Virus record (IMG/VR): IMGVR_UViG_3300030019_000031
Direction: 5' to 3' (one strand)
Source: an uncultured virus (IMG/VR IMGVR_UViG_3300030019_000031)
Lineage: Duplodnaviria > Heunggongvirae > Uroviricota > Caudoviricetes
Length of the DNA stretch: 64,000 nt
The notes beneath the pieces are model-generated. The model was not told where the DNA came from, did not search any database, and saw only the letters and a list, made by a program, of their open reading frames with translations. This document shows positions 33,529 to 62,793 of this stretch, piece after piece (within the stretch, counting starts at the first letter, position 1; the number at the start of each line of letters is the position of its first letter). Both the position numbers and the translations under genes were made by a program.

Positions 33529-34212
33529 TTAATCTATATTATAGATACCATTTGCGACTAATGCCGCTTTACGATCGATACATGTGCCACATGTGCCACA
33601 AGGTTTTTCTTTTCCCTCATAGCAGCTCCATGTGTGTGCATAATCAACACCGAGCTCTTTACCTATTTTAACAATGCCCGCTTTATTACTATTCCAGAAC
33701 GGCGCTTCCATTTTTACTTTGCCTCCTGTGCCTTCGTAAATAGCATTCTGCATCGCTTCAATAAATTCAGGAGTGCAATCAGGATAAGCTCTGCCGGCAG
33801 CATCATCAGCGTGTGCCCCATAATAAATTACGTCACATTCAAGCTGGATTGCTACGGCGGTAGCGTATGACAAAAATAAGCCATTACGAAAAGGAACATA
33901 AGCGGACACTGTGCCTGAGCCACCAAGCTCAGCCAACTGTTCAGCATATGACTTATGCGCGATCTCTCTTTTGCTTCCCTGCAATAAGGCACAACAATCT
34001 TTGTTAAAGCGAAAGACTTCGGACAGATCAGCGTTTAGCAACTCGACGCCATATTTTTCACATTGGAACACGGCGAACTCTTGCTCTTTCGCATGTTTCT
34101 GTCCATAGAACATATTCAATGCAACAACATTATCATTGCCAGCTTCATTGGCAGCCATAGCCAATAGTGTTGTACTATCCAAACCACCGCTACATAAAAC
34201 TAAAATCTTCAT
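33529..34212 (-). CDS. queC: 7-cyano-7-deazaguanine synthase
   Basis: SGGLDS, YGQKH, YVPFRN, YPDC, WSCY...CGTCGTC. Confidence 0.95.
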   Translation of the reverse strand: MKILVLCSGGLDSTTLLAMAANEAGNDNVVALNMFYGQKHAKEQEFAVFQCEKYGVELLNADLSEVFRFNKDCCALLQGSKREIAHKSYAEQLAELGGSGTVSAYVPFRNGLFLSYATAVAIQLECDVIYYGAHADDAAGRAYPDCTPEFIEAMQNAIYEGTGGKVKMEAPFWNSNKAGIVKIGKELGVDYAHTWSCYEGKEKPCGTCGTCIDRKAALVANGIYNID

Positions 34213-34224
34213 AATAAGCGCTCC

Positions 34225-34809
34225 TTACTTTAAGTCAATTAAGCTAAGAAACTCAGCTCTGGCCACATTGGTATTATCTTGAAAAACTCCCCGCACAGCT
34301 GAGGTAATGGTATTGGCGCCCGGCTTCTTGACACCGCGCATTGCCATGCACATATGCTCAGCTTTAATAACAACCATAACACCAATCGGCTTCAATTGCT
34401 CCTCAATCGCATCAGCAATCTGAGAAGTCATGCGCTCTTGTATCTGAAGACGTCTTGCATAACATTCAACAAGACGCGCCAGTTTACTGAGACCTACCAA
34501 ATTTCCATTTGGTATGTAAGCAATATGCACTTTTCCAATAAAGGGCACCATGTGATGTTCACAATGGCTAAAGAAATCGATATCTTTTACAATGACCATT
34601 TCTTTATGCTCTTCATCGCGAAAAGTCTTACTTAAGATAGCTTCCGGCGACATATCATATCCGCCGAAGATTTCATCATACATACGAGCAACACGACCTG
34701 GTGTTTCTTGGAGGCCTTCACGCGAAGCATACTCACCAGGAATCGTATTCAGTAATTCAAATACTGCCGCTGCTCTACGCTCATGCAAATCTGTTAAATA
34801 TTCACCCAT
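34225..34809 (-). CDS. folE: GTP cyclohydrolase I
   Basis: [33 protein letters not shown]. Confidence 0.95.
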
Positions 34810-35456
34810 TATCTTACCTCCATGAGTTTCTGTAATTGTACTCCGACGCGCAAACGTGAATCAGATTGCGCAATCGCAAAACACTTTTCCCAAGTCGGTT
34901 GCATGTGATAGCCATCTGGTTGTAACCAAATATTGCCTAAGAAACGATCCCTGATGGATTCGGTAATTACCTTCTCGTCAAAGTCTTCCGTGACAACATA
35001 TTTCAGTTCATCCGGAAGGCATGATTCATTAATCATGTAATTAGCATCACCTTTTGGTGAGCATGTTACCCAATCAGCATTCAACGGAGTAGCCAACGTA
35101 CCATTGGTTTCAATGGCTACAATATAATGCTCACCATGTAGTGCATCGATCAAAGCGTGTAGATCCTCCTGCAAACAAGGTTCACCGCCAGTAAGCACAA
35201 CAAGTTGAATTGTTCTGCCTAATTCCGCTTTGATAGTCGATGACTCTCTAGCTGCATCTGCCGCATAGTTTACTGCGCTAACTACTTTGGCTACGGATAA
35301 TGCTCTGGCCGCGCCTGATTGGGCATTAATCCATGTTGATTTTGTGTCACAGAAACTGCACTTGAGATTGCATCCCATAGTACGAACGAATACTGCCGGG
35401 ACGCCAAGATAATGTCCCTCGCCTTGTACGCTGGCAAAAATCTCTGCTATAAACAT
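34809..35456 (-). CDS. queE: 7-carboxy-7-deazaguanine synthase (radical SAM)
   Basis: [36 protein letters not shown]. Confidence 0.95.
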
Positions 35457-35458
35457 CG

Positions 35459-35902
35459 CTATACCTCCACGAAAGATGTGGGCGTTTCCCACAGCTTAAC
35501 TTTTATTTGCGAAATAGTAATTGGACGCAAGCCGTTCATGCGTTGCTTGAATCTTGATTGAATATAGCGTGCCATACACTCTGCTGTTGATCTGGGATAA
35601 ATAGTCGGCATTTCGAAAAACTTCAATTCGTATATGCTGCAGGTACCGAATATGGCCTCTTCGACGCAGTTCCTATATTTAGGCGAGCTAAACACAGTAG
35701 CATGATCGAATCTAGCCATAACTTCTTCTTGGATCATCTCTTTCAGGAGATTAAAATCCATTAGCATATGCGTTTCACTATCTACTGTGCCGCAGAGTGT
35801 AACCTGTAATTTGTACGTGTGGCCGTGTAGGTTAGAACACAGGCCTTTATAGCCGGATAACATATGCGCGCAATCAAATGTGACTTCTTTTGTTACTTCC
35901 AT
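35459..35902 (-). CDS. queD: 6-carboxytetrahydropterin synthase
   Basis: FDCAH, CSNLHGHTY, FDH, STAE, WETP. Confidence 0.95.
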   Translation of the reverse strand: MEVTKEVTFDCAHMLSGYKGLCSNLHGHTYKLQVTLCGTVDSETHMLMDFNLLKEMIQEEVMARFDHATVFSSPKYRNCVEEAIFGTCSIYELKFFEMPTIYPRSTAECMARYIQSRFKQRMNGLRPITISQIKVKLWETPTSFVEV

Positions 35903-35913
35903 AGCGATTCTCC

Positions 35914-36633
35914 TTATTCGCCGACAATATGATACTTTTCGCCAATATCATATGTGTCGATACTTTCATATTGTTTTACCCACTTAACCAATATACGCGT
36001 TATGGGTAACACAACAATTTCATAGCAGGTCTTAACACAAATCTGAAGAATAATCATCGAAGGTATTTGCGCCGCTGGTACCGATCCTATAAATGCAAGA
36101 GGAATAAAAATACATGAATCAATCGTTTCGCCGACAATAGTAGAAATAATAGCACGCCAACCGAATCCCTTATTTGAATTAATAGCAATATCCTTCTTAC
36201 CCTGTCTTGCTGCGGAAAGAACTTTCATTCGGCTTAGCACAGCGGCATTCGCATAGGAGCCTAAAACATAAGCAGTAAGTCCAGCAACTAACAATCTGGG
36301 CGTATTACCTAATACTGAAGCGACGGCACCGGATAATGTAAAATACACTGGTGCGGGAAGTACGATGGTAATCTCAAACATAATAACCATTAACAGATTC
36401 ATTGCGAATGCTGTCCACATAATGCTTCTAGCAGCTTTGAATCCGTATACTTCTGCGACGATATCGCTCAGTATGTATGAAATGGGAAAGACAATAACAC
36501 CTGCTGTTAATGTCCACGGGCCGATAGTAATCAGCTTGATTGCGATGATGTTGGAAATTAAAATACAGGCCGTAAAGAGAATACCGAAGAACATGAAAAG
36601 CGGTGTTACACGATTGACTTTTTTAGCCCTCAT
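35914..36633 (-). CDS. yhhQ: Queuosine precursor transporter (YhhQ/VUT family)
   Basis: SNIIAIK, FPISYILSDIVAEVYG, RAIISTIVGETIDS; multiple TM segments. Confidence 0.9.
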   Translation of the reverse strand: MRAKKVNRVTPLFMFFGILFTACILISNIIAIKLITIGPWTLTAGVIVFPISYILSDIVAEVYGFKAARSIMWTAFAMNLLMVIMFEITIVLPAPVYFTLSGAVASVLGNTPRLLVAGLTAYVLGSYANAAVLSRMKVLSAARQGKKDIAINSNKGFGWRAIISTIVGETIDSCIFIPLAFIGSVPAAQIPSMIILQICVKTCYEIVVLPITRILVKWVKQYESIDTYDIGEKYHIVGE

Positions 36634-37597
36634 CGATTTCACCCTCAACTAACACACGTGCATAAACTTTTTGTCCTGCTTTGATTGCCTCGACGCAGCC
36701 TGTAACAAGCATGTCGAACTCAGCTGACTCCGGGAGAATGGTTGAAGTATCTATCTTCATCGTTGAAATACGGATGGTTTCCAGATATCGAAGCCATCCG
36801 GCATATTGCCTCTTAATTGTTTCCAATTGATTGACGTTTATGTAATCATCTGCCCATACCTTACTACGCGCGCGCAAAATTGCTTCTGAAGCGTCGACAT
36901 AAATAATTAGGGTGTTGTAATCACAAAGAAGCTCGACTACCTTATCGAATTTTTTCCAATATTCGGCGGGCATATCAATTTTCTTGACCTTGCTATAGAT
37001 TGCTTCGTCTGGCCAATAGAAACGGTCATAAACAACATCAATTTGTGATTCTAATAAAGAAACAGCCAATTCAGGCTTATCCTCTTGACGCCAATCACAC
37101 TTTTGATATTTGAATCCGACCTTTTCCGCTACCGCTTTTGCCAGTGTCGTTTTGCCTCCACCATCCGGACCAACAAAGATAATATTCATCGGCGCCTTTG
37201 AATGCGTAATACGCGATGAAATAACCCGATAAGGAATGGAAGCTTTAAACAACTCATCTTTAGCCTGCCGATTTTCTTTTAAAGCTGTTGCCGCTATCCC
37301 ATCGGAATAACGCATAGCAGTTTTAGCCAAATTCAAATCGGCGATATCGTCTACCTTCATATCAGTGGCTTCAGCAATAGCTGTAAGATACCAAAGAACA
37401 TCACCTAATTCTTTCGCCAATTCCATCTTGTTTAGATCGGCATGATGAAATACGTGATGTTTTATAATATCTTGTACTTCGCCTGATTCGCCTCCGATAC
37501 CAAGTCCCCAATCCATCAACATCGCTTGTTCTGGTGTCAATGCAATATGTTCCTTGATGTAGGCTGACTGTGTCTGCTCTTGATAATCACCAAACAT
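36623..37597 (-). CDS. MazG-like NTP pyrophosphohydrolase fused to a P-loop nucleotide kinase
   Basis: GESGEV..IIK and KELGDVLWY; then VGPDGGGKTT, VYDRF, LIIYVDA. Confidence 0.85.
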   Translation of the reverse strand: MFGDYQEQTQSAYIKEHIALTPEQAMLMDWGLGIGGESGEVQDIIKHHVFHHADLNKMELAKELGDVLWYLTAIAEATDMKVDDIADLNLAKTAMRYSDGIAATALKENRQAKDELFKASIPYRVISSRITHSKAPMNIIFVGPDGGGKTTLAKAVAEKVGFKYQKCDWRQEDKPELAVSLLESQIDVVYDRFYWPDEAIYSKVKKIDMPAEYWKKFDKVVELLCDYNTLIIYVDASEAILRARSKVWADDYINVNQLETIKRQYAGWLRYLETIRISTMKIDTSTILPESAEFDMLVTGCVEAIKAGQKVYARVLVEGEIDEG

Positions 37598-37728
37598 ACT
37601 TGTTTACCTCCTGGAAATTTTTATTCAGAAACGTCATATGGAGGTAACACCCTCACTGACGTAAACTGTTAACACTTATCCGCTTGTAACTACACGCCCG
37701 GGCGAGCCTTGGCCCATCTCCAGAACAC

Positions 37729-37908
37729 CTATTTAAATAAATCCTTCAATAATGCCGTTGTATAACCGTCATTTACTTCAGCAAGAAATCCCTTTATAGA
37801 TTTCTGTGCTTCTGTTGGATTAGCTTTTGCAAACTTATCCCATCGGCGTAACAGCGACTCTGTACGATCTTTAAAAACGTCCCAATTTGTTACTTCTTGA
37901 TCTGGCAT
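37729..37908 (-). CDS. Hypothetical 59-aa protein (MPDQEVTNW...)
   Basis: AAAGGGA RBS; below the track cutoff. Confidence 0.55.
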   Translation of the reverse strand: MPDQEVTNWDVFKDRTESLLRRWDKFAKANPTEAQKSIKGFLAEVNDGYTTALLKDLFK

Positions 37909-37925
37909 AATATCATCCCTTTCTT

Positions 37926-38195
37926 TTAATCACGAAGCAAGAGCTTTATGAAATTGTGTATCCCGCGAGTTTCACAACCTAAGATCTTTCCCGTGCTAGC
38001 CCAGAATTGATATAATTTACCATTCCTAGATCGTGCATGAAAATGTCCCGTTTGTGAATTCTTTAGCGTAAATTCAATTTCATTTTTTGCAAGCTGGTCT
38101 AATGCGTATTGAATTCGCTCTGGAGTTTTAGCAACTCTTTCTGTGTGATTACGTTTAGCTAATTCCTTAATACCTTCAAAGTCTTCAGCTGACAT
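37926..38195 (-). CDS. Hypothetical protein
   Basis: RBS; FWASTGK...RGI motif common in small phage proteins. Confidence 0.7.
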   Translation of the reverse strand: MSAEDFEGIKELAKRNHTERVAKTPERIQYALDQLAKNEIEFTLKNSQTGHFHARSRNGKLYQFWASTGKILGCETRGIHNFIKLLLRD

Positions 38196-38237
38196 TATCT
38201 TGCCTCCTTACATATAAAGTCTCTCCCCTACAAACGT

Positions 38238-38270
38238 AAAAATAAGGGTGCCAGAAATCTGACACCCTTA
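38238..38270 (-). terminator. Terminator after SSB
   Basis: TAAGGGTG.CAGA-AA-TCTG.CACCCTTA with A-tract. Confidence 0.7.
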
Positions 38271-38285
38271 CCTTCATTTAGGAGA

Positions 38286-38801
38286 TTATCCTAGGAATGA
38301 ACCGCCGCCGACTTCATTCGCAGCCAAGATCTCTTTGACCTGATTACGTTTTTCTCCCTTGTAATCGCCTTTTTTCTGCGTGGTGATACCCAGCTTGATC
38401 TGGCACAGTCTGTTAATGATCGTGCCGTCATCCGTAAATTTCTTCGGATTGAAAGTTGACATATCCACTTCAGGACAAACGCGAGAAAGAATTTGCTTGA
38501 CCTTCGGTAATGCAAACTCGGATCCTTTGCCGGCAAGCACATAGTAATCGAAAACTTTTCTTTCGGCGAATTCGCCGTCGGTAATCGAATACACGGCCTT
38601 CAACATTGGGTTACCGCTACTGGCCGATTCAGTTAATTCAAACTCTTCGAACACAGCATTGTATGTACCCTTAGGCAGCACTTCAAAGGAAGATGCCGAT
38701 TCCTCAACATCATTGAGGTTGAATACCATCGATTCGGTATTCGCAGTTGCTTTGACGCCGGCTGTTTCGGTGGCTCCACCGAGATTAAAAGTATTATCCA
38801 T
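38286..38801 (-). CDS. Single-stranded DNA-binding protein (DUF669-like)
   Basis: FEVLPKGTY, SGNPML, RKVFD, Y.GEKRN.VK; Sak4 module context. Confidence 0.8.
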   Translation of the reverse strand: MDNTFNLGGATETAGVKATANTESMVFNLNDVEESASSFEVLPKGTYNAVFEEFELTESASSGNPMLKAVYSITDGEFAERKVFDYYVLAGKGSEFALPKVKQILSRVCPEVDMSTFNPKKFTDDGTIINRLCQIKLGITTQKKGDYKGEKRNQVKEILAANEVGGGSFLG

Positions 38802-38901
38802 AGAATCCTCCTACGCCATCCTTTCGCCCGACCAAAGTTACCACGGCGTAACTTATCCACCCACTAAATTTTAGCCCGTGATGATATGTGCATTTAAGCA
38901 C

Positions 38902-38977
38902 TTGTCCAAGATGCAGGAATCGAACCTGCGTTATGCGGTCTTAAACCCGCATGTTATGCCACTTCTACTAATCTCGG
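38902..38977 (-). tRNA. Aberrant tRNA-like element 1 (8-nt anticodon loop)
   Basis: CCGAGAT/ATCTTGG acceptor, GCAGG-TTCGATT-CCTGC T arm, TGCGG-GTTTAAGA-CCGCA, 3' A-CAA. Confidence 0.7.
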
Positions 38978-39061
38978 ATGTAAAACTGTCTAAAGGTTAT
39001 TGTTCCACTATCAACTACTTACGTAGGTCCTCTTACCTCAGCCTTTAGACGCAAAATAAAA

Positions 39062-39360
39062 CAATGACTATAGGCTTTCCACCTATCTGCTGGTTTGTAC
39101 ACACAGTGCAGTGCACATCAATTCTGGACCCATTCTCTCATGCTTACCTAAGATGTAGGTTTGTTCAATAGCACATCCCAATCTGTGTAGCGCATATTGT
39201 TCTACATAGCAAGTTACTTCGCAGCAAGGCGTTTCCCACTACTGTAAGTTTAGAGCGTCCCCTGTCTTACGACTTTTTGTTTCCACAGACTATTGACTAG
39301 ATGTCTTAACCACCTGGGTATCCGCACCTGCATCTTTCGATCGGCTTCTGGGCATCTAAT
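39062..39360 (-). ncRNA. Putative multi-hairpin structured RNA between tRNA-like elements
   Basis: No credible ORF; several GNRA-capped hairpins on the minus strand and complementary domain ends. Confidence 0.5.
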
Positions 39361-39371
39361 CTCTTTATCAT

Positions 39372-39452
39372 TGTTGGTTCAGATGAGGCTCGAACTCATC
39401 TACTGCAGTATTACTACCACATTGTTCTTCCGCATGCATGAACTACTGAACC
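39372..39452 (-). tRNA. Aberrant tRNA-like element 2
   Basis: GGTTCAG/CTGAACC acceptor, GTTC/GAAC D stem, ATGAG-TTCGAGC-CTCAT T arm, non-canonical anticodon arm. Confidence 0.7.
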
Positions 39453-39600
39453 ATGGGATCCTACCAAACCTGTGTATACTTCAAATACAATACACAGATT
39501 CAATATGGAATTACTCCGTTATACGGTCAAGGATCCATCACCGGGAAACATAAGCTTATTTTACTTCGGCCTTACCATGCCGAATCGCGTCGGGAACGCG

Positions 39601-39694
39601 TGGTGAGAGTGTACGGATTTGAACCGTAGTACCGAGATAAGTCACTGTAATAACAGCGGGCGCCTCTTCGTATGTCACCATGCATCACACTCTC
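39601..39694 (-). tRNA. Aberrant tRNA-like element 3 (expanded central arm, encoded CCA)
   Basis: GAGAGTG/CACTCTC-A-CCA, TACGG-TTCAAAT-CCGTA. Confidence 0.7.
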
Positions 39695-39700
39695 ATATCA

Positions 39701-39800
39701 GTAGCTGATTATTCAAGTCACTCAGCCCATGCAGGATAATTATCGGACGGATAATATAGCTACATTTTTGTCCGTCTGAGTGGCTTGAATAACCAGCTAC
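39701..39800 (-). ncRNA. Long stem-loop RNA (25-bp stem)
   Basis: Arms 39701-39725 and 39776-39800; one G-U and one mismatch. Confidence 0.65.
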
Positions 39801-39844
39801 CTATCCAAACTGCTAAAGAAAGGAAAATTTTAGGAAGAAACCCT

Positions 39845-39929
39845 TAATCAGCAGTTGTAAATCTCCTAGTGTTGTATTTGTTCTTTCGCGGCTATTCGAA
39901 AGCACTAGGGGACTTACAACAGCTGATTA
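39845..39929 (-). ncRNA. Long stem-loop RNA (~27-bp stem)
   Basis: TAATCAGC.GTTGTAAGTC.CCTAGTG pairs with CACTAGG.GATTTACAAC.GCTGATTA. Confidence 0.65.
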
Positions 39930-40033
39930 CTCAGCTGCCGCCGCTTTCGCGGAATCATATTTTATCGAGCAACATACTTCGGATCATGCCAAAGTACTTC
40001 TTAAAGGTAAATTACTGCGTTTTGCTTATCTAT

Positions 40034-40074
40034 CTTATATTAATATAATATAAAAATAAAATCGATTTTTAACG
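40034..40074 (-). promoter_or_regulatory. Phage-type promoter driving the RNA region
   Basis: CGTTAAAAA-N15-TATTATATTAATATA; near-identical copy at 43427-43466. Confidence 0.8.
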
Positions 40075-40104
40075 GGTAAATAAGCGGGTTTTGATTTTTA
40101 TTTT

Positions 40105-41079
40105 TTAATCGTTGTCTAAGTGATAGATAGTTTCCATCGTAGGATTATCTACGTATGCTGCCTTGAGGTTATCACCGAAACGGTTCTTAGCGGCGATGTG
40201 AGCATTACTATAATCACCACCGACAAGGAATAATCTGCGAGTAACCTTACCACCTTCTAATGGGATAGTACCATAATAACCAACGACATCTACAAGACCG
40301 CGGACATCGCCGGCTAACTTACCAGGAAGCAATGGTGTATAGAACCATCTCTTTGAAGTATCCTGATCGGTATCTTGGCCACAGATAAAAATACTGTTGA
40401 TTGGCAGATCGCGCAATCTGCGCACAAGAAACTGAATCATTTCACGTGATCTGCCCCACTCAGCAAATTGAGCCTGATCTGGTTCAGCATCCAGTTTTTG
40501 TGTAAGCGGATCAATGCCGAGTAACTGATACATACAGTATTTCTGTGCCTCAGTTAAGGAGTCAGTAATAACTGTACGGATCATCTTGGGCTGGGGGATC
40601 ATCTCCGCTAATTTGGCATCATCCGAACATACGGCAGGCGGGAATCCCTTAATCTGTGCTTCAAGACGACGTAAGTTTTTAATGTCATTACTGTCGCGGA
40701 ATTTCACATGAATCTTAAGGAATTCATAGATATTGGAATATTGTTTGTACGTCTGCACAGGGATAACAAGTACCCTCTTACCGACATCAATATTCAATTT
40801 CTTGCCTTCTTTAATCAACTGCTTGATTCCTTTTTCGCCGCCTTCCAAAGTGATATAAAGCACATCACTATAGGCATCGACTAAGGCGGCAGAACAAGCG
40901 AGAAAAGTTTTACCTACACCGAAATCGCCATACCACAAAGCGGATAGCCAATCGGAAGCAAAGTCTAAGTCTCTTGCAATAAAGGGGTTATTAGCGGACG
41001 GAACCGGAGCAGCTGAAACTACTGGTACGCTAGGCATTGATGGTGCTGGAGTACTCGAAGATGTACCTGATAAAGCCAT
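40105..41079 (-). CDS. AAA_24/Sak4-like ATPase (single-strand annealing)
   Basis: YGDFGVGKT, EGG, ITDSLT, VDVVGY, AKNR. Confidence 0.8.
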   Translation of the reverse strand: MALSGTSSSTPAPSMPSVPVVSAAPVPSANNPFIARDLDFASDWLSALWYGDFGVGKTFLACSAALVDAYSDVLYITLEGGEKGIKQLIKEGKKLNIDVGKRVLVIPVQTYKQYSNIYEFLKIHVKFRDSNDIKNLRRLEAQIKGFPPAVCSDDAKLAEMIPQPKMIRTVITDSLTEAQKYCMYQLLGIDPLTQKLDAEPDQAQFAEWGRSREMIQFLVRRLRDLPINSIFICGQDTDQDTSKRWFYTPLLPGKLAGDVRGLVDVVGYYGTIPLEGGKVTRRLFLVGGDYSNAHIAAKNRFGDNLKAAYVDNPTMETIYHLDND

Positions 41080-41101
41080 AATAAAATCCTCCTTATATTA
41101 T

Positions 41102-41127
41102 GTACAGCGCCTATTTAAGGCGCTGTA
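41102..41127. terminator. Hairpin
   Basis: GTACAGCGCCT-ATTTA-AGGCGCTGTAC. Confidence 0.55.
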
Positions 41128-41128
41128 C

Positions 41129-41440
41129 TCAGTAAGTTATTTCGCTAGAAGTCATGAGATCAGGTTCCTTGTTTGTCTTTTGGGAATCATTATAACCCTT
41201 CCAGAAACCATCAACAAAAGAAGTCCATTCTTTTGTTTTGAAATAGTCATCCTTCTTAGTTTTCTGTAATTCCTTTTTGACATCATCCAAATACTTCTGC
41301 GCTGTTTTCTTACTTGATGTGATTTGTTGTACAGATGAAGTAGTCGTTAGACCAGAAGTCATAACTTGTTGCTCTTCTGTGCAACCGCTAAAAGATAATA
41401 GCATGAGGCAGGATAAGCCAATAATAAAAGCATGTTTCAT
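41129..41440 (-). CDS. Putative lipoprotein
   Basis: Signal peptide ending LLSFSG-C; AGGAGGTG RBS. Confidence 0.7.
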   Translation of the reverse strand: MKHAFIIGLSCLMLLSFSGCTEEQQVMTSGLTTTSSVQQITSSKKTAQKYLDDVKKELQKTKKDDYFKTKEWTSFVDGFWKGYNDSQKTNKEPDLMTSSEITY

Positions 41441-41486
41441 ATTTTACACCTCCTTTCAAGAGTATGTATAACTTATCCTGTCGATA

Positions 41487-41909
41487 TTATGTCAATGATT
41501 GATTCTCAGTAAAACTACGCCAAGCAGCCATCGCAGCTACGCCAGAAGATTCTTTTTGTAACGTCTTAATGAACACCAAAAAGCCGTTACGCATATATTG
41601 CAAATCATCTGTACCATCGATCTTTTGCATTAGAGGAGAAATCTCCATTAATGGATCCAAGGGCACTGCGCCGGTGATTGCTGTATATAGAATACCAGCC
41701 TGCATAATAACAAATGAAACAGTGTTTGTTAAATTATCTGTCATGGTGTTATACTCAGTGACAAGGTTATTATATGCCGTCAGCTGTTCTTTGTAATCAG
41801 CAATAGCGAGCATTTTTTCTTCCCCCAGATTAGCCAGCTGATTCTCCTGTTGCGCGATTTTATTCTTCATACCGACAACAGATAAATGTTCATTTTTATG
41901 CCCAACCAT
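41487..41909 (-). CDS. Hypothetical coiled-coil protein
   Basis: GAGGAG RBS before ATG 41909. Confidence 0.65.
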   Translation of the reverse strand: MVGHKNEHLSVVGMKNKIAQQENQLANLGEEKMLAIADYKEQLTAYNNLVTEYNTMTDNLTNTVSFVIMQAGILYTAITGAVPLDPLMEISPLMQKIDGTDDLQYMRNGFLVFIKTLQKESSGVAAMAAWRSFTENQSLT

Positions 41910-41910
41910 A

Positions 41911-43389
41911 TTAACACTCCTCTTCGTAAGCAAACTGGAAGCCGGGAGCATCTTCAGGATTTTCATTTAACTCAATATTTAACTCTTCTGCCGTTTGCAT
42001 GATAGTTTCCATAGAGACTAAATCTTCATCGGATTCGGGCCATACGATGTCTTTACGCCAATCATCAATATTGCCATCCTCTGTACGTGGGCGCTGTTTC
42101 CATTGGAGCATCATTTCTCTGACAAGGATGTCATCTTTTTTGTCAATGGCGACGCACATATCACGGAAAGGGCAATCCCAAATACAATCTCTTGTCGGAT
42201 TGGGATAACAATACAAGTCTTTAGAAAGCATCATACGAACTTCACCCATAATGTTTTCATAGGTGGATTCAATTTGATTTCTATCCCTTGTTACAAAATC
42301 CCAACGAACAAAGCGGTCACCTTCAGGCGTTTCTTTTTCAGCTAAGGCGTTTAAGAATTGAATAAGCTTGCTTGGGGCTGCTTGTACAGAACCGAAATCA
42401 GCAATGAGCTCTTGCTTAAGTAAGCCGTACGTGGTTTTTTGTTTCTTGTCCACACTCAGCTCGCCGCTCTTTAATCTCTTAGGGGCCTGTACTTTATCTT
42501 TGGTGAGTTGTATATACACAAAGCCATAGATAGGATGTTTAAACCAAAGCTCAGCCGCCCAGCAATAAGCACTAATTTGATCATCTGTGTCTAACTTGTT
42601 TGTATCGGCGCCCTTAGCTGTTTTGTAATCAGCAATCCACCAACGCCCAAACCGATCTATAACCAATTTATCCATTGTGCCGTGATAATAGATTGGAACA
42701 AGATTAACGGGATGTTTAACCCCGGTAGTATCAGTCCAAACATATTCTTCTATCGGTTCTCCATCAATTTCAACGACGTTATCATCACCATAGAGGGCAT
42801 TTATAACCTTCTTAGTAAGATAGCCTGTATCATAAGTTCCCTGCCTATATTCCGCCCCCGGTGTATATACGGCATAGATCGTATCTGTTACCGCATCTGT
42901 AATTACCTGTATATCGAGTGGTATATTAAAACTTTGCTCAACCGCAGGAGTAGCGCCAGGAGTAAAGGGCTGTACTACATTCATCTTGTCATCAAACCAG
43001 ATAGTAGTAAACCCAGGCTGCTCATTGTGTCTCTCGTGCCAAGTTAGATAATAACTTAACATTGCAATACCTAATTCATAACAAGCATCTGCTCCCATAG
43101 GAAGATCGTCCGATTTGAATGCATGATAATAAGCATAAAGTGCACGTCGCGGATCTTTAAACCGATTATAGCCATGGTAATCTTCCAAGGCAAAATGGAT
43201 AGCAGAACCAAACCAGAAATTAATATTCTGCTCTGATCCTACCGAGGCAAGATTCTGCCTCAATGAGGACGTGTGGTCCCATTTGCGTAAACAACGACGA
43301 AAAACTCTTCTATCAGAAGTTCTGATAGTGAATTTACTTCGCACATTCGGGACTACTATTGTAGCTGACTCCGGAATGATAGCGTTCAT
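41911..43389 (-). CDS. PD-(D/E)XK exonuclease (RecB/Cas4-like)
   Basis: FRRCLRKW, GSAIH, GTMD, IADYKT, QISAY, C.WDCPFRDMC. Confidence 0.85.
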   Translation of the reverse strand: MNAIIPESATIVVPNVRSKFTIRTSDRRVFRRCLRKWDHTSSLRQNLASVGSEQNINFWFGSAIHFALEDYHGYNRFKDPRRALYAYYHAFKSDDLPMGADACYELGIAMLSYYLTWHERHNEQPGFTTIWFDDKMNVVQPFTPGATPAVEQSFNIPLDIQVITDAVTDTIYAVYTPGAEYRQGTYDTGYLTKKVINALYGDDNVVEIDGEPIEEYVWTDTTGVKHPVNLVPIYYHGTMDKLVIDRFGRWWIADYKTAKGADTNKLDTDDQISAYCWAAELWFKHPIYGFVYIQLTKDKVQAPKRLKSGELSVDKKQKTTYGLLKQELIADFGSVQAAPSKLIQFLNALAEKETPEGDRFVRWDFVTRDRNQIESTYENIMGEVRMMLSKDLYCYPNPTRDCIWDCPFRDMCVAIDKKDDILVREMMLQWKQRPRTEDGNIDDWRKDIVWPESDEDLVSMETIMQTAEELNIELNENPEDAPGFQFAYEEEC

Positions 43390-43426
43390 AAAAACAACCC
43401 TTTCAAAATAAATTATGATAAGTGGT

Positions 43427-43466
43427 CTATATTAATATAATATAAAAATAAAATCGATTTTTAACG
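43427..43466 (-). promoter_or_regulatory. Phage-type promoter
   Basis: Near-identical to 40034-40074. Confidence 0.8.
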
Positions 43467-43476
43467 GAGTTATTAT

Positions 43477-44892
43477 TTATTTTCTTGGGCCAACTTTACG
43501 TAACATCATCTGATATTGTTCCTCTGTACCGATAATCCAGTTAGCTGAATCCTGCTTTTCATTCAAGCGGCGTTTGACATCTTCATCAACAGAATTACCA
43601 TTATGCAATAGGTAATTACAATTAACGAAGTTAGATTGTCCTAGGCGGCATAAGCGATCTTCTGATTGCGTGTTAAAATTGAAATCCCACTCATAACCTA
43701 AAAAGAAACAATCCGATGCTGTAGTAGCATGAAAAGAGGCACCACTTTTGATAACACAAATCATTGCTTTATTTCTAGACGGATCACTTTCAAACCCCTG
43801 CCAAGAGTTAGCAAAAGCAGCAGGTGTCATACCGCCACTTATAAGATAGATTTTCGTTGCCATACCCATCTCAAAGATAACATCTTGAATTATAGATAGG
43901 GCTTGCTTAAACGGAGTAAACACTACAAAAGGCCGACCAGCAGTTAATAAAGCTTCTCCGGCCTCTCTAATATAATCTAAACCTGCTCCATCTTCATCAA
44001 TACCTAATAACCTAGGTGAAACAAGCAACTGACGCGCGCGGAGCATAGCAGTCATTTTATTAGGCGTCACAATAGTACTATCATCATCGCCATAATATAA
44101 CTCTTCTAAGACACCCTGGTGCGCAAGTCTCTGCTTAGGAGTCATCTCAAGTGGAATAACATTCCGTTGTTTGCCAGGCAAATCCTTCAGTACTTCTGTC
44201 TTAAGCCTACGTACCATATAATTATCTAACACGGAACGAAAGCTCTCGATGTTTCTAGGATTCCGCTCTATGTGTTTGCCAAACGGCGTATCTATCACGA
44301 TACAGTACTTATTTACGAATTGCCAGTAGTTTTTGAATGCCTCTGGTGCAATGAGATGTAATGGCGCATATAAATCAATTACGCCTTGTCTGATAGGAGT
44401 GCCGGTCATAAGATATAGATATGGCACTTTCTTAGAGTACTCCTGTACCATCCTAAACGTTTTGGTCTTCTGATTCAATAGACCGGCCACATGAATTTCA
44501 TCGCAGATAAGAGCGTTCCAGCAATCTTTATCCAGTTCATTTGCTACGCCGTAAGTGGTAATAAGGAAATGTGTATCCTCGTAATAAAATATATCCCATA
44601 TTTTCTTTCTTTTTGCTGGTGTACCGGTATAGATAATGCAGTCTTCGTCAAACCATTTGCTAATTTCTTCTTTCCAAACGTATAAAGCATTCTTGGAGCA
44701 TATTACTAATATCTGCCAAGGCGCATTATAGTCTGGTACTTTGTCTATTGCTGAAATAAGGGATTGTAATGTCTTACCTAATCCCATATCATCAAATTCT
44801 AGATTACCGTCCCGCTTAGACATAATAGAAATGCCCTCCGTCTGGTAAGAACGGAGAGCTAATTTGGCTTCAGCTAATTTGTCTTTAATCAT
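43477..44892 (-). CDS. SNF2-like helicase
   Basis: LRSYQ, DDMGLGKT, CDEIH, MTGTP, QSEDRLCRLGQ. Confidence 0.9.
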   Translation of the reverse strand: MIKDKLAEAKLALRSYQTEGISIMSKRDGNLEFDDMGLGKTLQSLISAIDKVPDYNAPWQILVICSKNALYVWKEEISKWFDEDCIIYTGTPAKRKKIWDIFYYEDTHFLITTYGVANELDKDCWNALICDEIHVAGLLNQKTKTFRMVQEYSKKVPYLYLMTGTPIRQGVIDLYAPLHLIAPEAFKNYWQFVNKYCIVIDTPFGKHIERNPRNIESFRSVLDNYMVRRLKTEVLKDLPGKQRNVIPLEMTPKQRLAHQGVLEELYYGDDDSTIVTPNKMTAMLRARQLLVSPRLLGIDEDGAGLDYIREAGEALLTAGRPFVVFTPFKQALSIIQDVIFEMGMATKIYLISGGMTPAAFANSWQGFESDPSRNKAMICVIKSGASFHATTASDCFFLGYEWDFNFNTQSEDRLCRLGQSNFVNCNYLLHNGNSVDEDVKRRLNEKQDSANWIIGTEEQYQMMLRKVGPRK

Positions 44893-46580: not shown

Positions 46581-46621
46581 CTTATATTAATATAATATCC
46601 AAATGATTTTTGTTTTTTACT
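46581..46621 (-). promoter_or_regulatory. Phage-type promoter (variant)
   Basis: AGTAAAAAA-N15-TATTATATTAATATAAG. Confidence 0.65.
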
Positions 46622-47765: not shown

Positions 47766-48390
47766 ATTTATCCTCCTCAATTAATTTACGTTTTGATATA
47801 ATGTCGCGACTATACGAAGAACTGTATATACCATTGCGCCATTTTTGTCTAGCGCTATTCTCCCCATAATTATATGCCATCAGTGCCCTTTGAGCGTCAT
47901 ATCTAAGTAGATAGGTCGAAATCATATAAACGCCGGCTTCTATATTTTGTTTAGCATTTAGGAAGTCGGTAACGCCTAAAGCTTCTTGTAACCACTTATG
48001 ATTGCATTTATTAATTTGCATTATGCCGTAATCATTAGTGGCACTGATGCCATCCACTGTAAAATTGGACTCTCGCCACATCATGGCAAGAACCAATTCA
48101 TAGTGCTGTGGGATACCATACTGTTGACACTTCTTGTATGTATATTCTTGTAGGGATGTGTCAAGCGGAATATGATAAGTCGCTATAGCCAATTTTGCAG
48201 GGGTTTTATATTCTTTGGCAGTATAAGTAGCAGATGTATCTACTTGTACCACCACTGGTACGCTAAAAGTTGACTTGTTAGGTAATTGTGGCCCCAATGG
48301 AATTGATGCATCTTTTGTTGCGGGGGCACAAGCTATTAGTAGACCGCATATTAATACAAACGCAATACCTCTTTTGAGGTACTTAGGCAA
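47752..48390 (-). CDS. Secreted/lipoprotein lytic transglycosylase (SLT domain)
   Basis: MMWRESNF, GIMQIN, NIEAG, ALMAYNYG; N-terminal signal peptide; TTG start inferred. Confidence 0.85.
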   Translation of the reverse strand: MPKYLKRGIAFVLICGLLIACAPATKDASIPLGPQLPNKSTFSVPVVVQVDTSATYTAKEYKTPAKLAIATYHIPLDTSLQEYTYKKCQQYGIPQHYELVLAMMWRESNFTVDGISATNDYGIMQINKCNHKWLQEALGVTDFLNAKQNIEAGVYMISTYLLRYDAQRALMAYNYGENSARQKWRNGIYSSSYSRDIISKRKLIEEDKYANN

Positions 48391-49579
48391 TATCTTGCCC
48401 CTTCTTATAAAATAATAGGAAGTAGCAACCATGTCGTATTGCGTCCCTTGCATGTTTCATACCTGTTTGCCAGTAGCCCCATTGCGTCAACTTCTCATCT
48501 GTTACGAATCCTTTTGCCGTGACAGCCATCTGTTTGTGTGTTTTAATGTCTTTCATCTGACAGTACGCTTCGATAGCGCCTATAACGCGTACAGTAAATA
48601 CTGGGCTATAACTGTGTCTTTCGAGTTTGTGTGAATAAACACGATAATCCTCATATACGATGAAGTCCGGTGCTTTATCATCAATTAATTCCATTAAGAC
48701 CTTCGCATTGATATTTTGTTCATCGTAACAATTTTCAACGTGTCCTGTCTCAGTTAACTTGCCATCTTCAAATAAACACCAGCCAGTTGTCATACCAGGA
48801 TCTAAACAAAGCAGCTTATGCGGTATTTTCTTGTCATGTCTCAGTCTCTCTAACAGTTCCGCGAATGATAAATTCATATAATCCCACATCCTTTGAAATA
48901 CTACTTCCATAACACGCTCATGCCGTGTACGTACGTTCTGCACTGACACACCTAAGTTCTTAGCCAGTTGGGTTAAATTGAAACTCTGCTTCTGAGACTC
49001 AATGAACACTAAGTCCATAATGTAAGCGAATTCCAATTTTTCCCACCTATTAACATCCATTTTAGTTGGCATATGTTTACCGCGATCAGCCGTTTGCATG
49101 ATACAAGGCTTTATTATGTTGTCGCAAATGAATGTTAATTCGTTCTCCTCGACATAGGCATCTAGCTCCTGCTCGGCTTTTTCATCGAAACACATTTCGG
49201 CTGCTCCGACTACATCACCATTAGCTAATCTAGCGTCTCCGTCTAAGTAAACACGATCGTTCTCGCTTAACTGACTCTCTAGCGAATGACGTTGCTTTTT
49301 GTATGCCATATGCAATTCACGCTCGATACAAAACCAGGCGTAAGATGAAAATGGTACTTCGCGTTGAGTTTCATATGTCTGTGCCGCAGTGATTAGACCT
49401 AAGCAACCATTTTGGAACTGATCTTCGGTGTATGGGCGGTATTTCTTTAATACCTCCGATACCAACTTAATGTTCAGTTCAATGATTTTGTTACGAATCT
49501 GAATCTGGTCCTCTGGGTTTGTGATATCCTTTAGTATGCCGAAAAGCCTATTGGTCTCTGCTTTGTAGTCAAAGTTCAT
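48383..49579 (-). CDS. Sigma-70 family (sporulation-like) sigma factor fused to a RuvC-like nuclease domain
   Basis: Region 2 (NIKLV..VLKKY..EDQFQNGCLGLITAA.TY...FSSYA..CI.RE), region 4 HTH (LTQLAKNLGVSVQNV), then LCLDPG.TTGW, IVYED, HARDA. Confidence 0.85.
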   Translation of the reverse strand: MNFDYKAETNRLFGILKDITNPEDQIQIRNKIIELNIKLVSEVLKKYRPYTEDQFQNGCLGLITAAQTYETQREVPFSSYAWFCIERELHMAYKKQRHSLESQLSENDRVYLDGDARLANGDVVGAAEMCFDEKAEQELDAYVEENELTFICDNIIKPCIMQTADRGKHMPTKMDVNRWEKLEFAYIMDLVFIESQKQSFNLTQLAKNLGVSVQNVRTRHERVMEVVFQRMWDYMNLSFAELLERLRHDKKIPHKLLCLDPGMTTGWCLFEDGKLTETGHVENCYDEQNINAKVLMELIDDKAPDFIVYEDYRVYSHKLERHSYSPVFTVRVIGAIEAYCQMKDIKTHKQMAVTAKGFVTDEKLTQWGYWQTGMKHARDAIRHGCYFLLFYKKGQDIA

Positions 49580-51614: not shown

Positions 51615-51653
51615 TATATTATTATAATATCAAAACTGCTTTTATTTTTAACG
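51615..51653 (-). promoter_or_regulatory. Phage-type promoter
   Basis: CGTTAAAAA-N15-TATTATAATAATATA. Confidence 0.8.
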
Positions 51654-52056: not shown

Positions 52057-52095
52057 TATATTATTATAATATGAAAATGCTTTCGATTTTTAACG
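52057..52095 (-). promoter_or_regulatory. Phage-type promoter
   Basis: CGTTAAAAA-N15-TATTATAATAATATA. Confidence 0.8.
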
Positions 52096-52229: not shown

Positions 52230-52269
52230 CGTTAAAAATATAATATTTTTTAATATTATATTAATATAG
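52230..52269 (+). promoter_or_regulatory. Phage-type promoter for ligase/primase
   Basis: CGTTAAAAA-N15-TATTATATTAATATA. Confidence 0.8.
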
Positions 52270-56024: not shown

Positions 56025-56063
56025 CGTTAAAAATCTTTCAAATTGCTATATAATATTAATATA
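56025..56063 (+). promoter_or_regulatory. Phage-type promoter
   Basis: CGTTAAAAA-N15-TATAATATTAATATA. Confidence 0.8.
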
Positions 56064-62256: not shown

Positions 62257-62727
62257 ATGCCAAGACACGGAGGCAAACACATTGTCCTAGTTAGAGGCGC
62301 CGAGGAAGCAATGCGTGCGTTCAAGATGGAAATTGCAGGCGACTTAGGTTTAGCGAGTAAGTTAGGTGAAGGCGACGAAGCCTTTAGAAACTTCTCAACT
62401 GTCGAAGTAGGAACTATAGGCGGCGAGATGGTTCGTAGACTTCAAGCACTCGGAGAATACACCGTAAAGACAAGATACGACAATCACGAGCAGCGTTTAT
62501 TACCTGACAACATGATGCCTGCTTCAAGCTCATTGAGAGACGTCAGCAATAACGGAAACGTTCAACACAATGGTACGCTAGGCGGAAGCGAGACTCCTAA
62601 TAATCACTCTATCACAGAGAATCACTCTATCACAGAGATGAACGCTCAAGCTAACACAAGTAACATGCCGAATAGTAATGCCGTCGACAGCAAAGCTAAC
62701 ACACAGCAGTTTAACTTAGCTAAGTAG
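62257..62727 (+). CDS. Alpha/beta-type small acid-soluble spore protein homologue with Asn-rich extension
   Basis: LVRGAEEAMRAFKMEIAGDLG and VGTIGGEMVRRL match the two SASP helices. Confidence 0.8.
   Translation: MPRHGGKHIVLVRGAEEAMRAFKMEIAGDLGLASKLGEGDEAFRNFSTVEVGTIGGEMVRRLQALGEYTVKTRYDNHEQRLLPDNMMPASSSLRDVSNNGNVQHNGTLGGSETPNNHSITENHSITEMNAQANTSNMPNSNAVDSKANTQQFNLAK
62602..62637 (+). repeat. 18-bp tandem duplication (NHSITE x2)
   Basis: AATCACTCTATCACAGAG x2. Confidence 0.9.
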
Positions 62728-62738
62728 TTTAGAAACGG

Positions 62739-62793
62739 AAAGGCTCTTCTCGCGGTGACTTATCGTTATCGTTATCGTTGAGAAGAGCCTTTT
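62739..62793 (+). terminator. Terminator after the SASP gene
   Basis: AAAGGCTCTTCTC...GAGAAGAGCCTTTT. Confidence 0.75.

What the first reader, a model, noticed from the sequence alone, without database searches (positions are those of the whole stretch)
38860..40030. A ~1.2 kb non-coding RNA region: structured RNAs punctuated by three tRNA mimics
Seen: a phage promoter (40034-40074) faces ~1.2 kb with no credible ORF in an otherwise dense genome. On the minus strand, in order: GNRA hairpins, a ~27-bp stem-loop, a 25-bp stem-loop, tRNA-like 3, two small hairpins, a GGATCCT/AGGATCC-closed domain (39456-39536), tRNA-like 2, a ~65-nt stem domain, a ~230-nt multibranch domain, an 11-bp-closed domain (38988-39050), and tRNA-like 1. 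All three tRNA-like units keep the acceptor stem and T arm but lack a normal anticodon arm. Established: these are the features RNase P and RNase Z read, and large phage RNAs such as GOLLD and ROOL often sit among tRNAs. Inference: a polycistronic RNA processed at tRNA mimics into several small RNAs, possibly decoys or antitoxins against host defences. This is my best candidate for an undescribed system.
Basis: partly seen in the sequence, partly recalled or inferred. Interest (0 to 1): 0.86.

Follow-up and report, generated by a model that had tools for sequence, protein, structure and literature searches.

The report
Phage RNA cassette with tRNA look-alikes
A 1.3-kb gene-free stretch of an uncultured phage, sitting behind one of the phage's own promoters, is a swappable cassette of folded small RNAs: one odd tRNA, two tRNA-shaped RNAs without an anticodon, and a small three-armed RNA that recurs in the tRNA gene clusters of dozens of other phages and matches no family in the Rfam RNA catalogue.

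Summary
Window 38802-40104 (minus strand) is the largest ORF-free gap in the window. It lies between a Sak4-like recombinase gene and ssb, behind a phage promoter motif found at 8 intergenic sites. It holds three perfect acceptor-stem/T-arm units (0 of 200 shuffles reach 3). Only one scores as a tRNA (42 bits), and it has an 8-nt anticodon loop. One of the others is a full cloverleaf whose anticodon loop is replaced by a GUAA tetraloop.

In relatives, the same promoter-to-ssb site varies from about 200 to 1350 nt. It carries other tRNAs, other anticodon-less tRNA-shaped units and reshuffled modules.

The main new result concerns the "11-bp-closed domain" (38985-39055). It belongs to a small three-way-junction RNA found in 64 IMG/VR stretches. 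It always shares the strand of neighbouring tRNAs, often lies within 11 nt of a tRNA or tmRNA, and occurs once inside a group I intron hairpin. Its helices covary strongly, and it has no Rfam match.

One metatranscriptome contig (175 nt) lies inside the region.

Best reading: an accessory, co-transcribed small-RNA array punctuated by tRNA-shaped processing handles. Processing and function are inferred, not shown. The decoy or antitoxin role is untested.

The parts
40034..40070 (-). Phage promoter motif (core TATATTATATTAATATA) that heads the non-coding cassette
   Evidence: Second copy at 43426-43462. 8 intergenic sites in the window, each oriented with the downstream gene. Conserved in relatives while the cargo behind it is not.
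39906..39953 (-). Module D, 5' part: the GNRA hairpin CCGCGAAAGCGG (39941-39952) plus the 5' arm of long hairpin 1
   Evidence: Homologous stretch in L004 and L020 at a different place in their cassettes. In all three it is followed by a long hairpin of differing sequence.
39843..39932 (-). Long hairpin 1 (about 27 bp)
   Evidence: MFE -39.5 kcal/mol, z -8.9, 0 of 200 shuffles as good. It folds on either strand (hairpin-type miRNA hits on both strands).
39697..39805 (-). Long hairpin 2 (about 25 bp), ending 2 nt before tRNA-like 3
   Evidence: MFE -46.4 kcal/mol, z -7.1, 0 of 200 shuffles. By my reading it has two G-U pairs on the minus strand and one on the plus strand.
39601..39694 (-). tRNA-like 3: 7-bp acceptor stem, 5-bp T stem, UUCAAAU loop, encoded ACCA. 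The 59-nt middle has an irregular arm capped by a 4-nt loop.
   Evidence: No tRNA hit in Rfam at E<=10 or in ARAGORN.
39456..39536 (-). GGAUCC-closed domain
   Evidence: z -3.4, 0 of 200 shuffles. No counterpart in the relatives.
39375..39452 (-). tRNA-like 2: a complete cloverleaf (acceptor 7 bp, D stem 4 bp, T stem 5 bp) whose 'anticodon' arm is a 7-bp stem capped by a GUAA tetraloop
   Evidence: Fold (MFE equals centroid, z -2.0).. Not called a tRNA by Rfam or ARAGORN.
39058..39345 (-). 'A-C RNA', about 280 nt. It comprises module A (39249-39321), a conserved block starting at 39142, and module C (39071-39098: ACAAACCAGC, then a 5-bp hairpin with loop UGGAAAG and a U-rich tail).
   Evidence: The blocks occur in the same order in L004 and L036, and modules A and C occur in L115. 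The module C stem reads AUAGG, GUAGG, CGAGG or GCGGG, each with a matching partner strand. The GNRA hairpin changes from GUC-GUAA-GAC to GCC-GUAA-GGU.
38985..39055 (-). 'Motif B': a small three-way-junction RNA, widespread in phage tRNA arrays
   Evidence: Model R1 scores 78.8 bits, and this is the only copy in the window. 55 IMG/VR stretches share its 20-mer, and 9 more are variants. Covariation is shown.
38905..38977 (-). tRNA-like 1: a tRNA with an 8-nt anticodon loop (GUUUAAGA), a G3:U70 pair and discriminator A73, with no encoded CCA
   Evidence: Rfam tRNA 42 bits. ARAGORN 'Stop|Leu (ttaa)'. Pairs read.
38802..38904 (-). Conserved ssb leader, the 3' boundary of the variable cargo
   Evidence: 38806-38881 aligns with L036, and 38807-38833 aligns with L016 and L047 (L007 too). 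The same leader words appear in L004, L020 and L030.

Best explanation
The region is an accessory small-RNA cassette array of a tailed phage whose host is probably a spore-forming Firmicute. It is inserted between a phage promoter and the ssb leader, inside the replication/recombination module.

One transcript from the promoter at 40034-40070 would carry, in order:
- a GNRA hairpin and two long hairpins;
- a tRNA-shaped unit ending in ACCA;
- a closed domain;
- a cloverleaf with a tetraloop in place of the anticodon;
- a roughly 280-nt structured RNA;
- the portable three-way-junction 'motif B';
- a tRNA with an 8-nt anticodon loop;
- ssb and the downstream genes.

Inferred mechanism: host RNase P and RNase Z (or 3' exonucleases) recognise the acceptor/T-arm 'minihelix' and elbow of the three tRNA-shaped units. 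They cut there, as in phage tRNA clusters and the organellar 'tRNA punctuation' model. This would release several stable small RNAs and give the ssb mRNA a defined 5' end. RNase III could cut the long hairpins.

Modules are gained, lost and reshuffled by recombination between related phages.

Shown: the anatomy, the conservation and covariation of the modules, their portability, and the link of motif B to tRNA arrays. Inferred: co-transcription, the cleavage sites, and what the released RNAs do.
For: (1) One strand, one promoter. The promoter motif occurs at 8 intergenic sites and is conserved in relatives.

(2) There are three perfect minihelix units, and 0 of 200 shuffles reach 3. All four helices of tRNA-like 2 are intact and only the anticodon loop is replaced. 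This is not the pattern of random decay.

(3) The Sak4-to-ssb gap ranges from 196 to 1354 nt where no genes are inserted. All 6 Rfam tRNA hits in 13 relatives lie in this gap. Of 42 distinct gap sequences, 12 carry a tRNA or a tRNA-shaped unit. Several of these have a hairpin in place of the anticodon arm: L030, L050 and L009.

(4) Modules A, B, C and D recur in L004, L020, L030, L036 and L115 in a different order.

(5) Motif B:
- 86% of cells are paired against 74% in shuffles. The covariation score is 0.345 against 0.136, with 0 of 500 shuffles as high; slid controls score 0.15 or less.
- 37 of 55 loci hold 80 tRNA/tmRNA genes, and none is on the opposite strand.
- A tRNA or tmRNA starts within 11 nt downstream in 12 of 55 loci, and a tRNA ends within 11 nt upstream in 9 of 55.

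(6) An RNA-library contig of 175 nt, 100% identical, covers 39260-39434.

(7) A DNA variant in run X10 keeps tRNA-like 1 but joins other sequence at 38986, which is a module boundary.
Against: - No RNA ends are mapped. The single RNA contig bridges the 3' end of tRNA-like 2 (39375/39376), so at least some molecules are uncut there. Alternatively the contig could be DNA carried over into an RNA library.
- tRNA-like 2 and 3 have no detectable homologues, so their odd middles cannot be tested for covariation. tRNA-like 1 has no near-identical copy elsewhere in IMG/VR.
- The MFE of tRNA-like 3 is not better than shuffles (z -1.15).
- Module C looks like a weak terminator in the middle of the array, which would argue for more than one transcription unit.
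- The long hairpins fold equally well on both strands.
Confidence: 0.5

Rival explanations
1. This is a decaying tRNA cluster plus selfish or neutral RNA modules. The site once held ordinary tRNA genes; what remains are pseudogenes and hitch-hiking structured elements of no use to the phage.
For: Relatives carry ordinary tRNAs at the same site: Met in L004 (60 bits) and Arg in L016 (63 bits). The cargo is dispensable, since several relatives have only about 200-290 nt there. tRNA-like 1 has a weak D stem and an 8-nt loop.
Against: Decay should hit all helices alike. Instead, the acceptor and T arms of all three units are perfect, and tRNA-like 2 has four intact helices and a GNRA cap. The same design, with the anticodon arm turned into a capped hairpin, recurs in L030, L050 and L009 and in unrelated arrays (L094, L105, L080, L092, L104). 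Motif B is under strong structural selection.
Confidence: 0.18
2. The tRNA-shaped units are themselves the products. They would be non-decoding tRNA mimics, some chargeable with alanine through G3:U70, that occupy or divert host tRNA-dependent machinery such as AlaRS/EF-Tu, SmpB/trans-translation or tRNA-targeting defence nucleases.
For: tRNA-like 1 has G3:U70 and A73. Units in L009 and L030 have G3:U70 plus an encoded ACCA and no anticodon loop. Other phage arrays hold units of about 76 nt with G3:U70 that begin GGGGG...GGUUUCGA, the start of the tmRNA in L108, and lack a coding part (L080, L092, L104; only L104 ends in an encoded ACCA). That G3:U70 is the main alanine identity element is established knowledge, recalled and not tested here.
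Against: tRNA-like 2 and 3 lack G3:U70. No SmpB, synthetase or nuclease gene was found beside the region. No charging, binding or defence data exist.
Confidence: 0.14
3. The region acts at the DNA level. The long inverted repeats and the AT-rich promoter region would form a replication origin, a recombination hot spot or a packaging-related site within the replication module.
For: The region lies between the helicase, exonuclease and Sak4 genes and ssb. It has two inverted repeats of 25-27 bp that fold on either strand. GC is 0.34 at 39950-40249. The module boundaries behave as recombination joints.
Against: The region has strand-specific RNA features: GNRA tetraloops, a bona fide tRNA, and motif B, which always shares the strand of neighbouring tRNAs. 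No iterons were noticed in reading the sequence; no repeat scan was run. An RNA-library contig lies inside the region.
Confidence: 0.08

Closest known systems
Phage tRNA gene clusters with co-transcribed small stable RNAs (for example the T4 tRNA region with RNAs C and D; recalled, no paper read here)
   Same: One-strand arrays of tRNA-shaped genes and other small structured RNAs in a variable, dispensable region. Maturation by host RNase P is expected.
   Different: Only one unit scores as a tRNA, and it has an 8-nt anticodon loop. The others have no anticodon. The array sits in the leader of ssb behind a phage promoter, and its non-tRNA modules are unrelated to anything in Rfam.
tRNA punctuation and plant mitochondrial t-elements (PMC1920247; search listing and abstract only)
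   Same: tRNA-like structures without a decoding role that mark transcript ends for RNase P and RNase Z.
   Different: That system is organellar and acts on mRNA. Here no ends are mapped, and the flanked products are mostly non-coding.
Theta (minimal HDV-like) ribozymes next to phage tRNAs (PMC10879173; passages read)
   Same: A small conserved RNA placed within a few nt of tRNA ends in phage tRNA arrays. Motif B starts -1 to +4 nt after a tRNA in 8 of 55 loci.
   Different: In motif B the 5'-most and 3'-most strands pair with each other, as covariation shows. This is not the nested double pseudoknot of HDV-like ribozymes. No HDV-type Rfam hit was found. Self-cleavage is untested.
Drum RNA (RF02958) and the large phage RNAs GOLLD and ROOL
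   Same: Structured RNAs of unknown function that occur near tRNAs in phages. A drum RNA lies in L067 about 600 nt from motif B.
   Different: None of them matches the window, even at E<=10.
T-box Stem I distal platform, a tRNA-elbow docking motif (Rfam consensus seen; PMC4919913 in the search listing only)
   Same: Motif B shows AGAG in one loop and GUUG..GUG(G/A)AA in the other. The T-box consensus has AGAGA next to a loop GgUUGGUGaaA.
   Different: There is no T-box hit. The architecture differs: two hairpin loops of a junction rather than a bulge plus a loop. The four loop letters that would match vary in 9 of 41 copies.
tmRNA tRNA-like domain and bacterial YrlA tRNA mimics (PMC4201824; search listing only)
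   Same: tRNA-shaped RNAs in which the anticodon arm is replaced by another helix.
   Different: ARAGORN and Rfam find no tmRNA in the window. In YrlA the 5' and 3' ends lie at the anticodon side (recalled), whereas here the acceptor stem is open as in tRNA.

Membership tests
tRNA (Rfam RF00005) | Score at or above the 29-bit gathering threshold | tested here: met
   Met only by 38905-38977 (42 bits). tRNA-like 2 and 3 give no hit even at E<=10 and are not called by ARAGORN, with or without the intron option.
tRNA (decoding) | 7-nt anticodon loop presenting a 3-nt anticodon | tested here: not met
   tRNA-like 1 has an 8-nt loop, read by ARAGORN as 'ttaa' (Stop|Leu). tRNA-like 2 has a GUAA tetraloop on a 7-bp stem. 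tRNA-like 3 has no recognisable anticodon arm.
tmRNA | tRNA-like ends plus a tag reading frame, as detected by ARAGORN or Rfam tmRNA models | tested here: not met
   No tmRNA in the window. A true tmRNA follows motif B in L108 (131.6 bits).
HDV-like / theta ribozyme | Nested double pseudoknot in which the 5'-most strand (P1) pairs internally, with a catalytic C in J4/2 | tested here: not met
   Covariation supports pairing of the 5'-most strand with the 3'-most strand. No HDV-type Rfam hit. The authors' own descriptor was not available to me.
HDV-like / theta ribozyme | Cleavage site within 5 nt of a tRNA end | tested here: inconclusive
   The 5' end of motif B lies -1 to +4 nt from a tRNA 3' end in 8 of 55 loci. 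The window's own copy has no tRNA just upstream.
Known small self-cleaving ribozymes (hammerhead, twister, twister-sister, pistol, hatchet, hairpin) | Match to the Rfam covariance model | tested here: not met
   No such hit in 38700-40150 at E<=10.
Drum, GOLLD, ROOL | Match to the Rfam covariance model | tested here: not met
   None in the window.
VIPR vrRNA array (bioRxiv 10.64898/2026.04.26.720920; abstract in the listing) | Guide RNAs made of alternating GGY/NN segments | tested here: not met
   The longest GGYNN run in the whole window is 3 units (39581-39567). A Vipr protein was not searched for.
T-box leader | Match to RF00230 (Stem I, specifier, antiterminator) | tested here: not met
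   No hit. There is only a short word resemblance to the Stem I distal consensus.
tRNA punctuation / t-element-like processing signal | Cleavage by RNase P at the 5' end and by RNase Z at the 3' end of the tRNA-shaped unit | not testable with these tools
   The structural prerequisites are present: a 7-bp acceptor stem, a T arm, and a GG in the D region. The one RNA contig crosses the 3' end of tRNA-like 2.

The most novel reading that the evidence does not exclude
Motif B is a new functional RNA class of phage tRNA arrays. It is a portable three-way junction whose two conserved loops (UAAGA.. and UUGAUA..) could form a docking platform for the tRNA elbow, or a self-processing or RNase-guiding element that matures neighbouring tRNAs. 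It would travel with a so far undescribed toolkit of phage-encoded, anticodon-less tRNA-shaped RNAs, including alanine-type units that resemble the tmRNA tRNA-like domain alone. These could act on host tRNA-dependent systems rather than in decoding.
Probability: 0.2. Interest if true: 0.85.

Novelty: new variant of a known kind. Interest (0 to 1): 0.64.

Why it matters
Phage tRNA clusters are usually read as codon-usage aids. This locus shows the same kind of array filled mostly with RNAs that cannot decode.

It also exposes a small, strongly covarying RNA that dozens of unrelated phages keep between their tRNAs, yet which matches no Rfam family and turned up in none of my literature searches. 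That gives RNA biologists a short (about 60 nt), well-defined, easily synthesised target for cleavage, binding and structure tests.

It also gives a concrete set of natural anticodon-less tRNA shapes with which to ask what else phages do with the tRNA fold.

Finally, the site is a clear example of modular exchange of non-coding cargo at a fixed promoter-to-leader slot.

Tried and rejected
- blastn ('distant') of the whole region against 50,697 GenBank phage records: no match.
- Rfam at E<=10 over 38700-40150: apart from the tRNA, only sub-threshold hairpin-type hits (mir-605 at 30 bits against a 98-bit threshold, and others), which merely reflect the long hairpins.
- Model R1 finds no second copy in the window, and module A is not detectably related to motif B despite some shared words. 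R1 also misses the divergent second copy in L093, so the model is narrow.
- The module A pattern occurs in only 3 IMG/VR contigs. The tRNA-like 1 pattern finds only the phage itself.
- A motif B pattern in 185,579 species genomes gives 4 stretches. Only 1 is a true copy (73.9 bits, on a 2-kb contig of an Acutalibacteraceae MAG).
- VIPR is rejected.
- RNA run X24 gave no cover outside 39260-39434 in 36500-43500.
- String searches of the paper library for four 14-mers of the motif B core found only an unrelated tomato paper. Word searches for phage tRNA-like decoys, tRNA-adjacent motifs and non-canonical phage tRNAs found no description of these elements. Supplements were not searched.
- A by-sequence look-up in the scan's earlier findings found nothing.
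- I considered RNase P RNA, group I intron and L1-stalk readings of the A-C RNA and motif B, based on recalled resemblances only. No Rfam support exists, so I dropped them.
Full report
**Observation.** The stretch between the Sak4-like recombinase gene (40105-41079, minus; PHROG 124, E 1.4e-26) and ssb (38286-38801, minus; SSB PHROGs) is 1303 nt. It is the largest ORF-free gap in a greedy ORF map of the window. The longest same-strand ORF inside it is 41 aa. None of 8 small ORFs tested matches a PHROG, and the 86-aa opposite-strand ORF matches no Pfam family.

The 37-mer at 40034-40070 is repeated at 43426-43462. Its core (TATATTATATTAATATA) marks 8 intergenic sites, each facing the downstream gene, against 0.03 expected. 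It is therefore a genuine phage promoter consensus. The phage also encodes a protein with a sigma-70 region 2 domain (48383-49579).

**Who carries it.** The window is a tailed phage. It has terminase, a ClpP-type prohead protease, a tape measure protein and a GH25 lysin. It also has family A DNA polymerase, a primase-polymerase, ribonucleotide reductase, ThyX, a QueC/FolE/QueE/QueD set and an alpha/beta-type SASP gene. The SASP gene suggests a spore-forming Firmicute host; this is an inference. The DNA occurs in peat metagenomes: 23 DNA rows, possibly all from one campaign. The same phage is G001/L003/L019/L052.

**tRNA-shaped units.** I scanned for a perfect 7-bp acceptor stem, a perfect 5-bp T stem and a TTCRANN loop. 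The scan finds exactly three units in both strands of the 64 kb, all in this region on the minus strand. 200 dinucleotide-preserving shuffles give a mean of 0.14 and never reach 3 (first pass).
- *Unit 1 (38977-38905)* is a tRNA by Rfam (42 bits) and ARAGORN. It has an 8-nt anticodon loop, read as 'ttaa' (Stop or Leu), a G3:U70 pair and A73.
- *Unit 2 (39452-39375)* folds as a complete cloverleaf, but its 'anticodon' arm is a 7-bp stem closed by a GUAA tetraloop.
- *Unit 3 (39694-39601)* has an encoded ACCA and a 59-nt middle with no recognisable anticodon arm.

Units 2 and 3 are invisible to Rfam at E<=10 and to ARAGORN.

**A variable cargo slot.** I collected 14 relatives from IMG/VR and 37 metagenome loci through the Sak4-like protein. 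The promoter and the ssb leader are conserved, but what lies between them is not. The Sak4-to-ssb distance runs from 196 to 1354 nt where no genes are inserted.

All 6 Rfam tRNA hits in 13 relatives fall in this slot. Of 42 distinct gap sequences, 12 carry a tRNA or a tRNA-shaped unit. Several have the same design as here:
- L030 and L050 have a long capped hairpin instead of the anticodon arm and end in ACCA.
- L009 and L030 also have G3:U70.

Four pieces of the window's cargo recur elsewhere in another order:
- module A (39249-39321) in L004 and L036;
- module B (38994-39056) in L004, L030 and L036;
- module C (39071-39098) in L004;
- module D (39906-39953) in L004 and L020.

A DNA variant in run X10 keeps unit 1 but continues into different sequence at 38986, exactly between motif B and the tRNA.

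*Distribution.* Its 20-mer core occurs in 55 IMG/VR stretches from contigs of 5-240 kb. A search anchored on the other half of the motif adds 9 variant copies out of 41 hits. Among 185,579 species genomes only one true copy was found, on a 2-kb MAG contig.

*Structure.* On 52 sequences (alignment A3), the outer helix P1 and hairpin P2 covary. For example, pair 22:76 reads AU 22, UA 12, CG 8 and GC 4. In all, 86% of cells pair against 74% in shuffles, and the covariation score is 0.345 against 0.136 (0 of 500 shuffles as high). Sliding the partners by 1-3 columns drops pairing to 31-52%.

The third hairpin (GUU/AAC) is invariant. In the 9 variant copies, four loop letters vary while UUGAUA and AACAAUAACC stay fixed, although the search did not require them. 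The motif is thus a three-way junction of about 60 nt with two conserved loops.

*Context.* Around the 55 copies, ARAGORN finds 80 tRNA/tmRNA genes in 37 loci, and none is on the opposite strand. A tRNA or tmRNA begins within 11 nt downstream in 12 of 55 loci, and a tRNA ends within 11 nt upstream in 9 of 55.

Rfam on 20 of these loci gives 54 tRNAs, one tmRNA that starts about 10 nt after the motif (L108), one drum RNA and one group I intron. In that intron (L086), the motif fills a terminal hairpin where the model expects 9 nt and the sequence has 42. In L004 and L036 the motif sits inside the A-C RNA.

It is therefore a portable module that extends a helix or fills a tRNA spacer. Rfam 15 has no family for it. 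String and word searches of the paper library found no description; supplements were not searched.

**The other domains.**
- *The A-C RNA.* The '~230-nt multibranch domain' plus its flanks is one RNA of about 280 nt (39345-39058). Its conserved blocks keep the same order in L004 and L036, and two of them occur in L115, a different 55-kb phage. Its 3' hairpin keeps the loop UGGAAAG while the stem changes with compensation (AUAGG, GUAGG, CGAGG, GCGGG). In the window and in L115 it is followed by a U-rich tail. This could be a weak terminator.
- *Module D.* This is a GNRA hairpin followed by a long hairpin. The hairpin's sequence differs between the window and L004/L020, but its pairing is kept.
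- *Hairpins.* The two long hairpins are far more stable than shuffles (z -8.9 and -7.1). The GGAUCC-closed domain also beats shuffles (z -3.4). The two small hairpins do not.

**Expression.** One peat metatranscriptome run (X24) holds a 175-nt contig identical to 39260-39434. It runs from inside unit 2 across that unit's 3' end into module A. This is weak evidence of transcription, because contigs show neither strand nor ends, and DNA carry-over is possible. It also shows that some molecules are not cut at the 3' end of unit 2.

**Mechanism.** My best reading (confidence 0.5) is an accessory small-RNA array co-transcribed from the phage promoter. The tRNA-shaped units would serve as RNase P/RNase Z handles, and the modules between them would be released as small RNAs. 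That these enzymes need only the acceptor/T-arm half and the elbow is established knowledge, not tested here.

The rivals are:
- plain decay of a tRNA cluster (0.18), which the intact helices and the recurrent 'capped anticodon arm' design argue against;
- the tRNA shapes as the active products, such as alanine-type mimics or decoys (0.14), which is attractive because of G3:U70/ACCA units here and in other arrays but is untested;
- a DNA-level role (0.08).

**Comparison with known systems.** The array works like a phage tRNA cluster with extra stable RNAs, and like organellar tRNA punctuation. It is not a member of the tmRNA, HDV-like/theta, drum, GOLLD, ROOL, T-box or VIPR families.

A short resemblance between the loops of motif B and the T-box Stem I distal consensus (AGAGA; GgUUGGUGaaA) is a lead for a tRNA-elbow-binding role. 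However, the matching loop letters vary in 9 of 41 copies.

Earlier notes of this scan describe similar themes on other genomes: portable junction cassettes in tRNA spacers, structured punctuation of shuffled cassettes, and VIPR tails. I tested only the VIPR lead.

**Limits.**
- No homologues of units 2 and 3 were found.
- The motif B alignment was seeded by exact words, so core conservation is partly by construction.
- No end-mapped RNA data exist.
- The host is uncultured.

Noticed in passing
window 33529-35902 (-): A contiguous QueC, GTP cyclohydrolase I, radical-SAM (QueE-like) and PTPS (QueD-like) gene set. This is the preQ0 pathway, which suggests 7-deazaguanine modification of the phage DNA. 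No transglycosylase (DpdA/TGT) was recognised among the neighbouring unknown ORFs.
   Followed up: partly
window 62257-62727 (+): A phage-encoded alpha/beta-type small acid-soluble spore protein domain (Pfam SASP, E 3.2e-10). It hints at a spore-forming Firmicute host.
   Followed up: no
window 4358-4379, 40036-40057, 43428-43449, 46583-46604, 51615-51636, 52057-52078, 52247-52268, 56042-56063: Eight copies of one AT-rich promoter-like consensus, each oriented with the downstream gene. The phage also has a sigma-70-region-2 protein at 48383-49579.
   Followed up: partly
window 38802-38904 (-): The ssb leader is conserved across relatives whose cargo differs. It is G-rich (..UAGUGGGUGGAU..GGUCGGG..GGAUGG..) and may be a translational operator.
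   Followed up: no
L063:417-546 and L067:490-619 (in motif orientation): tRNA-Leu-like genes of other phages with an extra hairpin of about 45-55 nt inside the anticodon loop. It is too short for a group I intron.
   Followed up: no
L080:355-430, L092:237-313, L104:354-429 (in motif orientation): Units of about 76 nt that begin like a tmRNA (GGGGG..GGUUUCGA), have G3:U70 and have only a short hairpin in place of the coding part; L104 alone ends in an encoded ACCA. They look like natural tmRNAs reduced to the tRNA-like domain in phage tRNA arrays.
   Followed up: no
L093, directly 3' of its motif B copy: A second, divergent copy of motif B (core ..GUAGUUAAUAGUGCGACAAAAUAACC) that model R1 does not detect at E<=1. 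The family is therefore wider than my model.
   Followed up: partly
L094 and L105 (units at 1080-1193/1194 in motif orientation): tRNA-shaped genes with normal acceptor, D and T arms, but with about 60 nt of hairpins where the anticodon arm should be. They are conserved between two phages.
   Followed up: no
window 3463-4455 and 62728-63493: Two further ORF-poor gaps, of 993 and 766 nt. I did not examine them.
   Followed up: no
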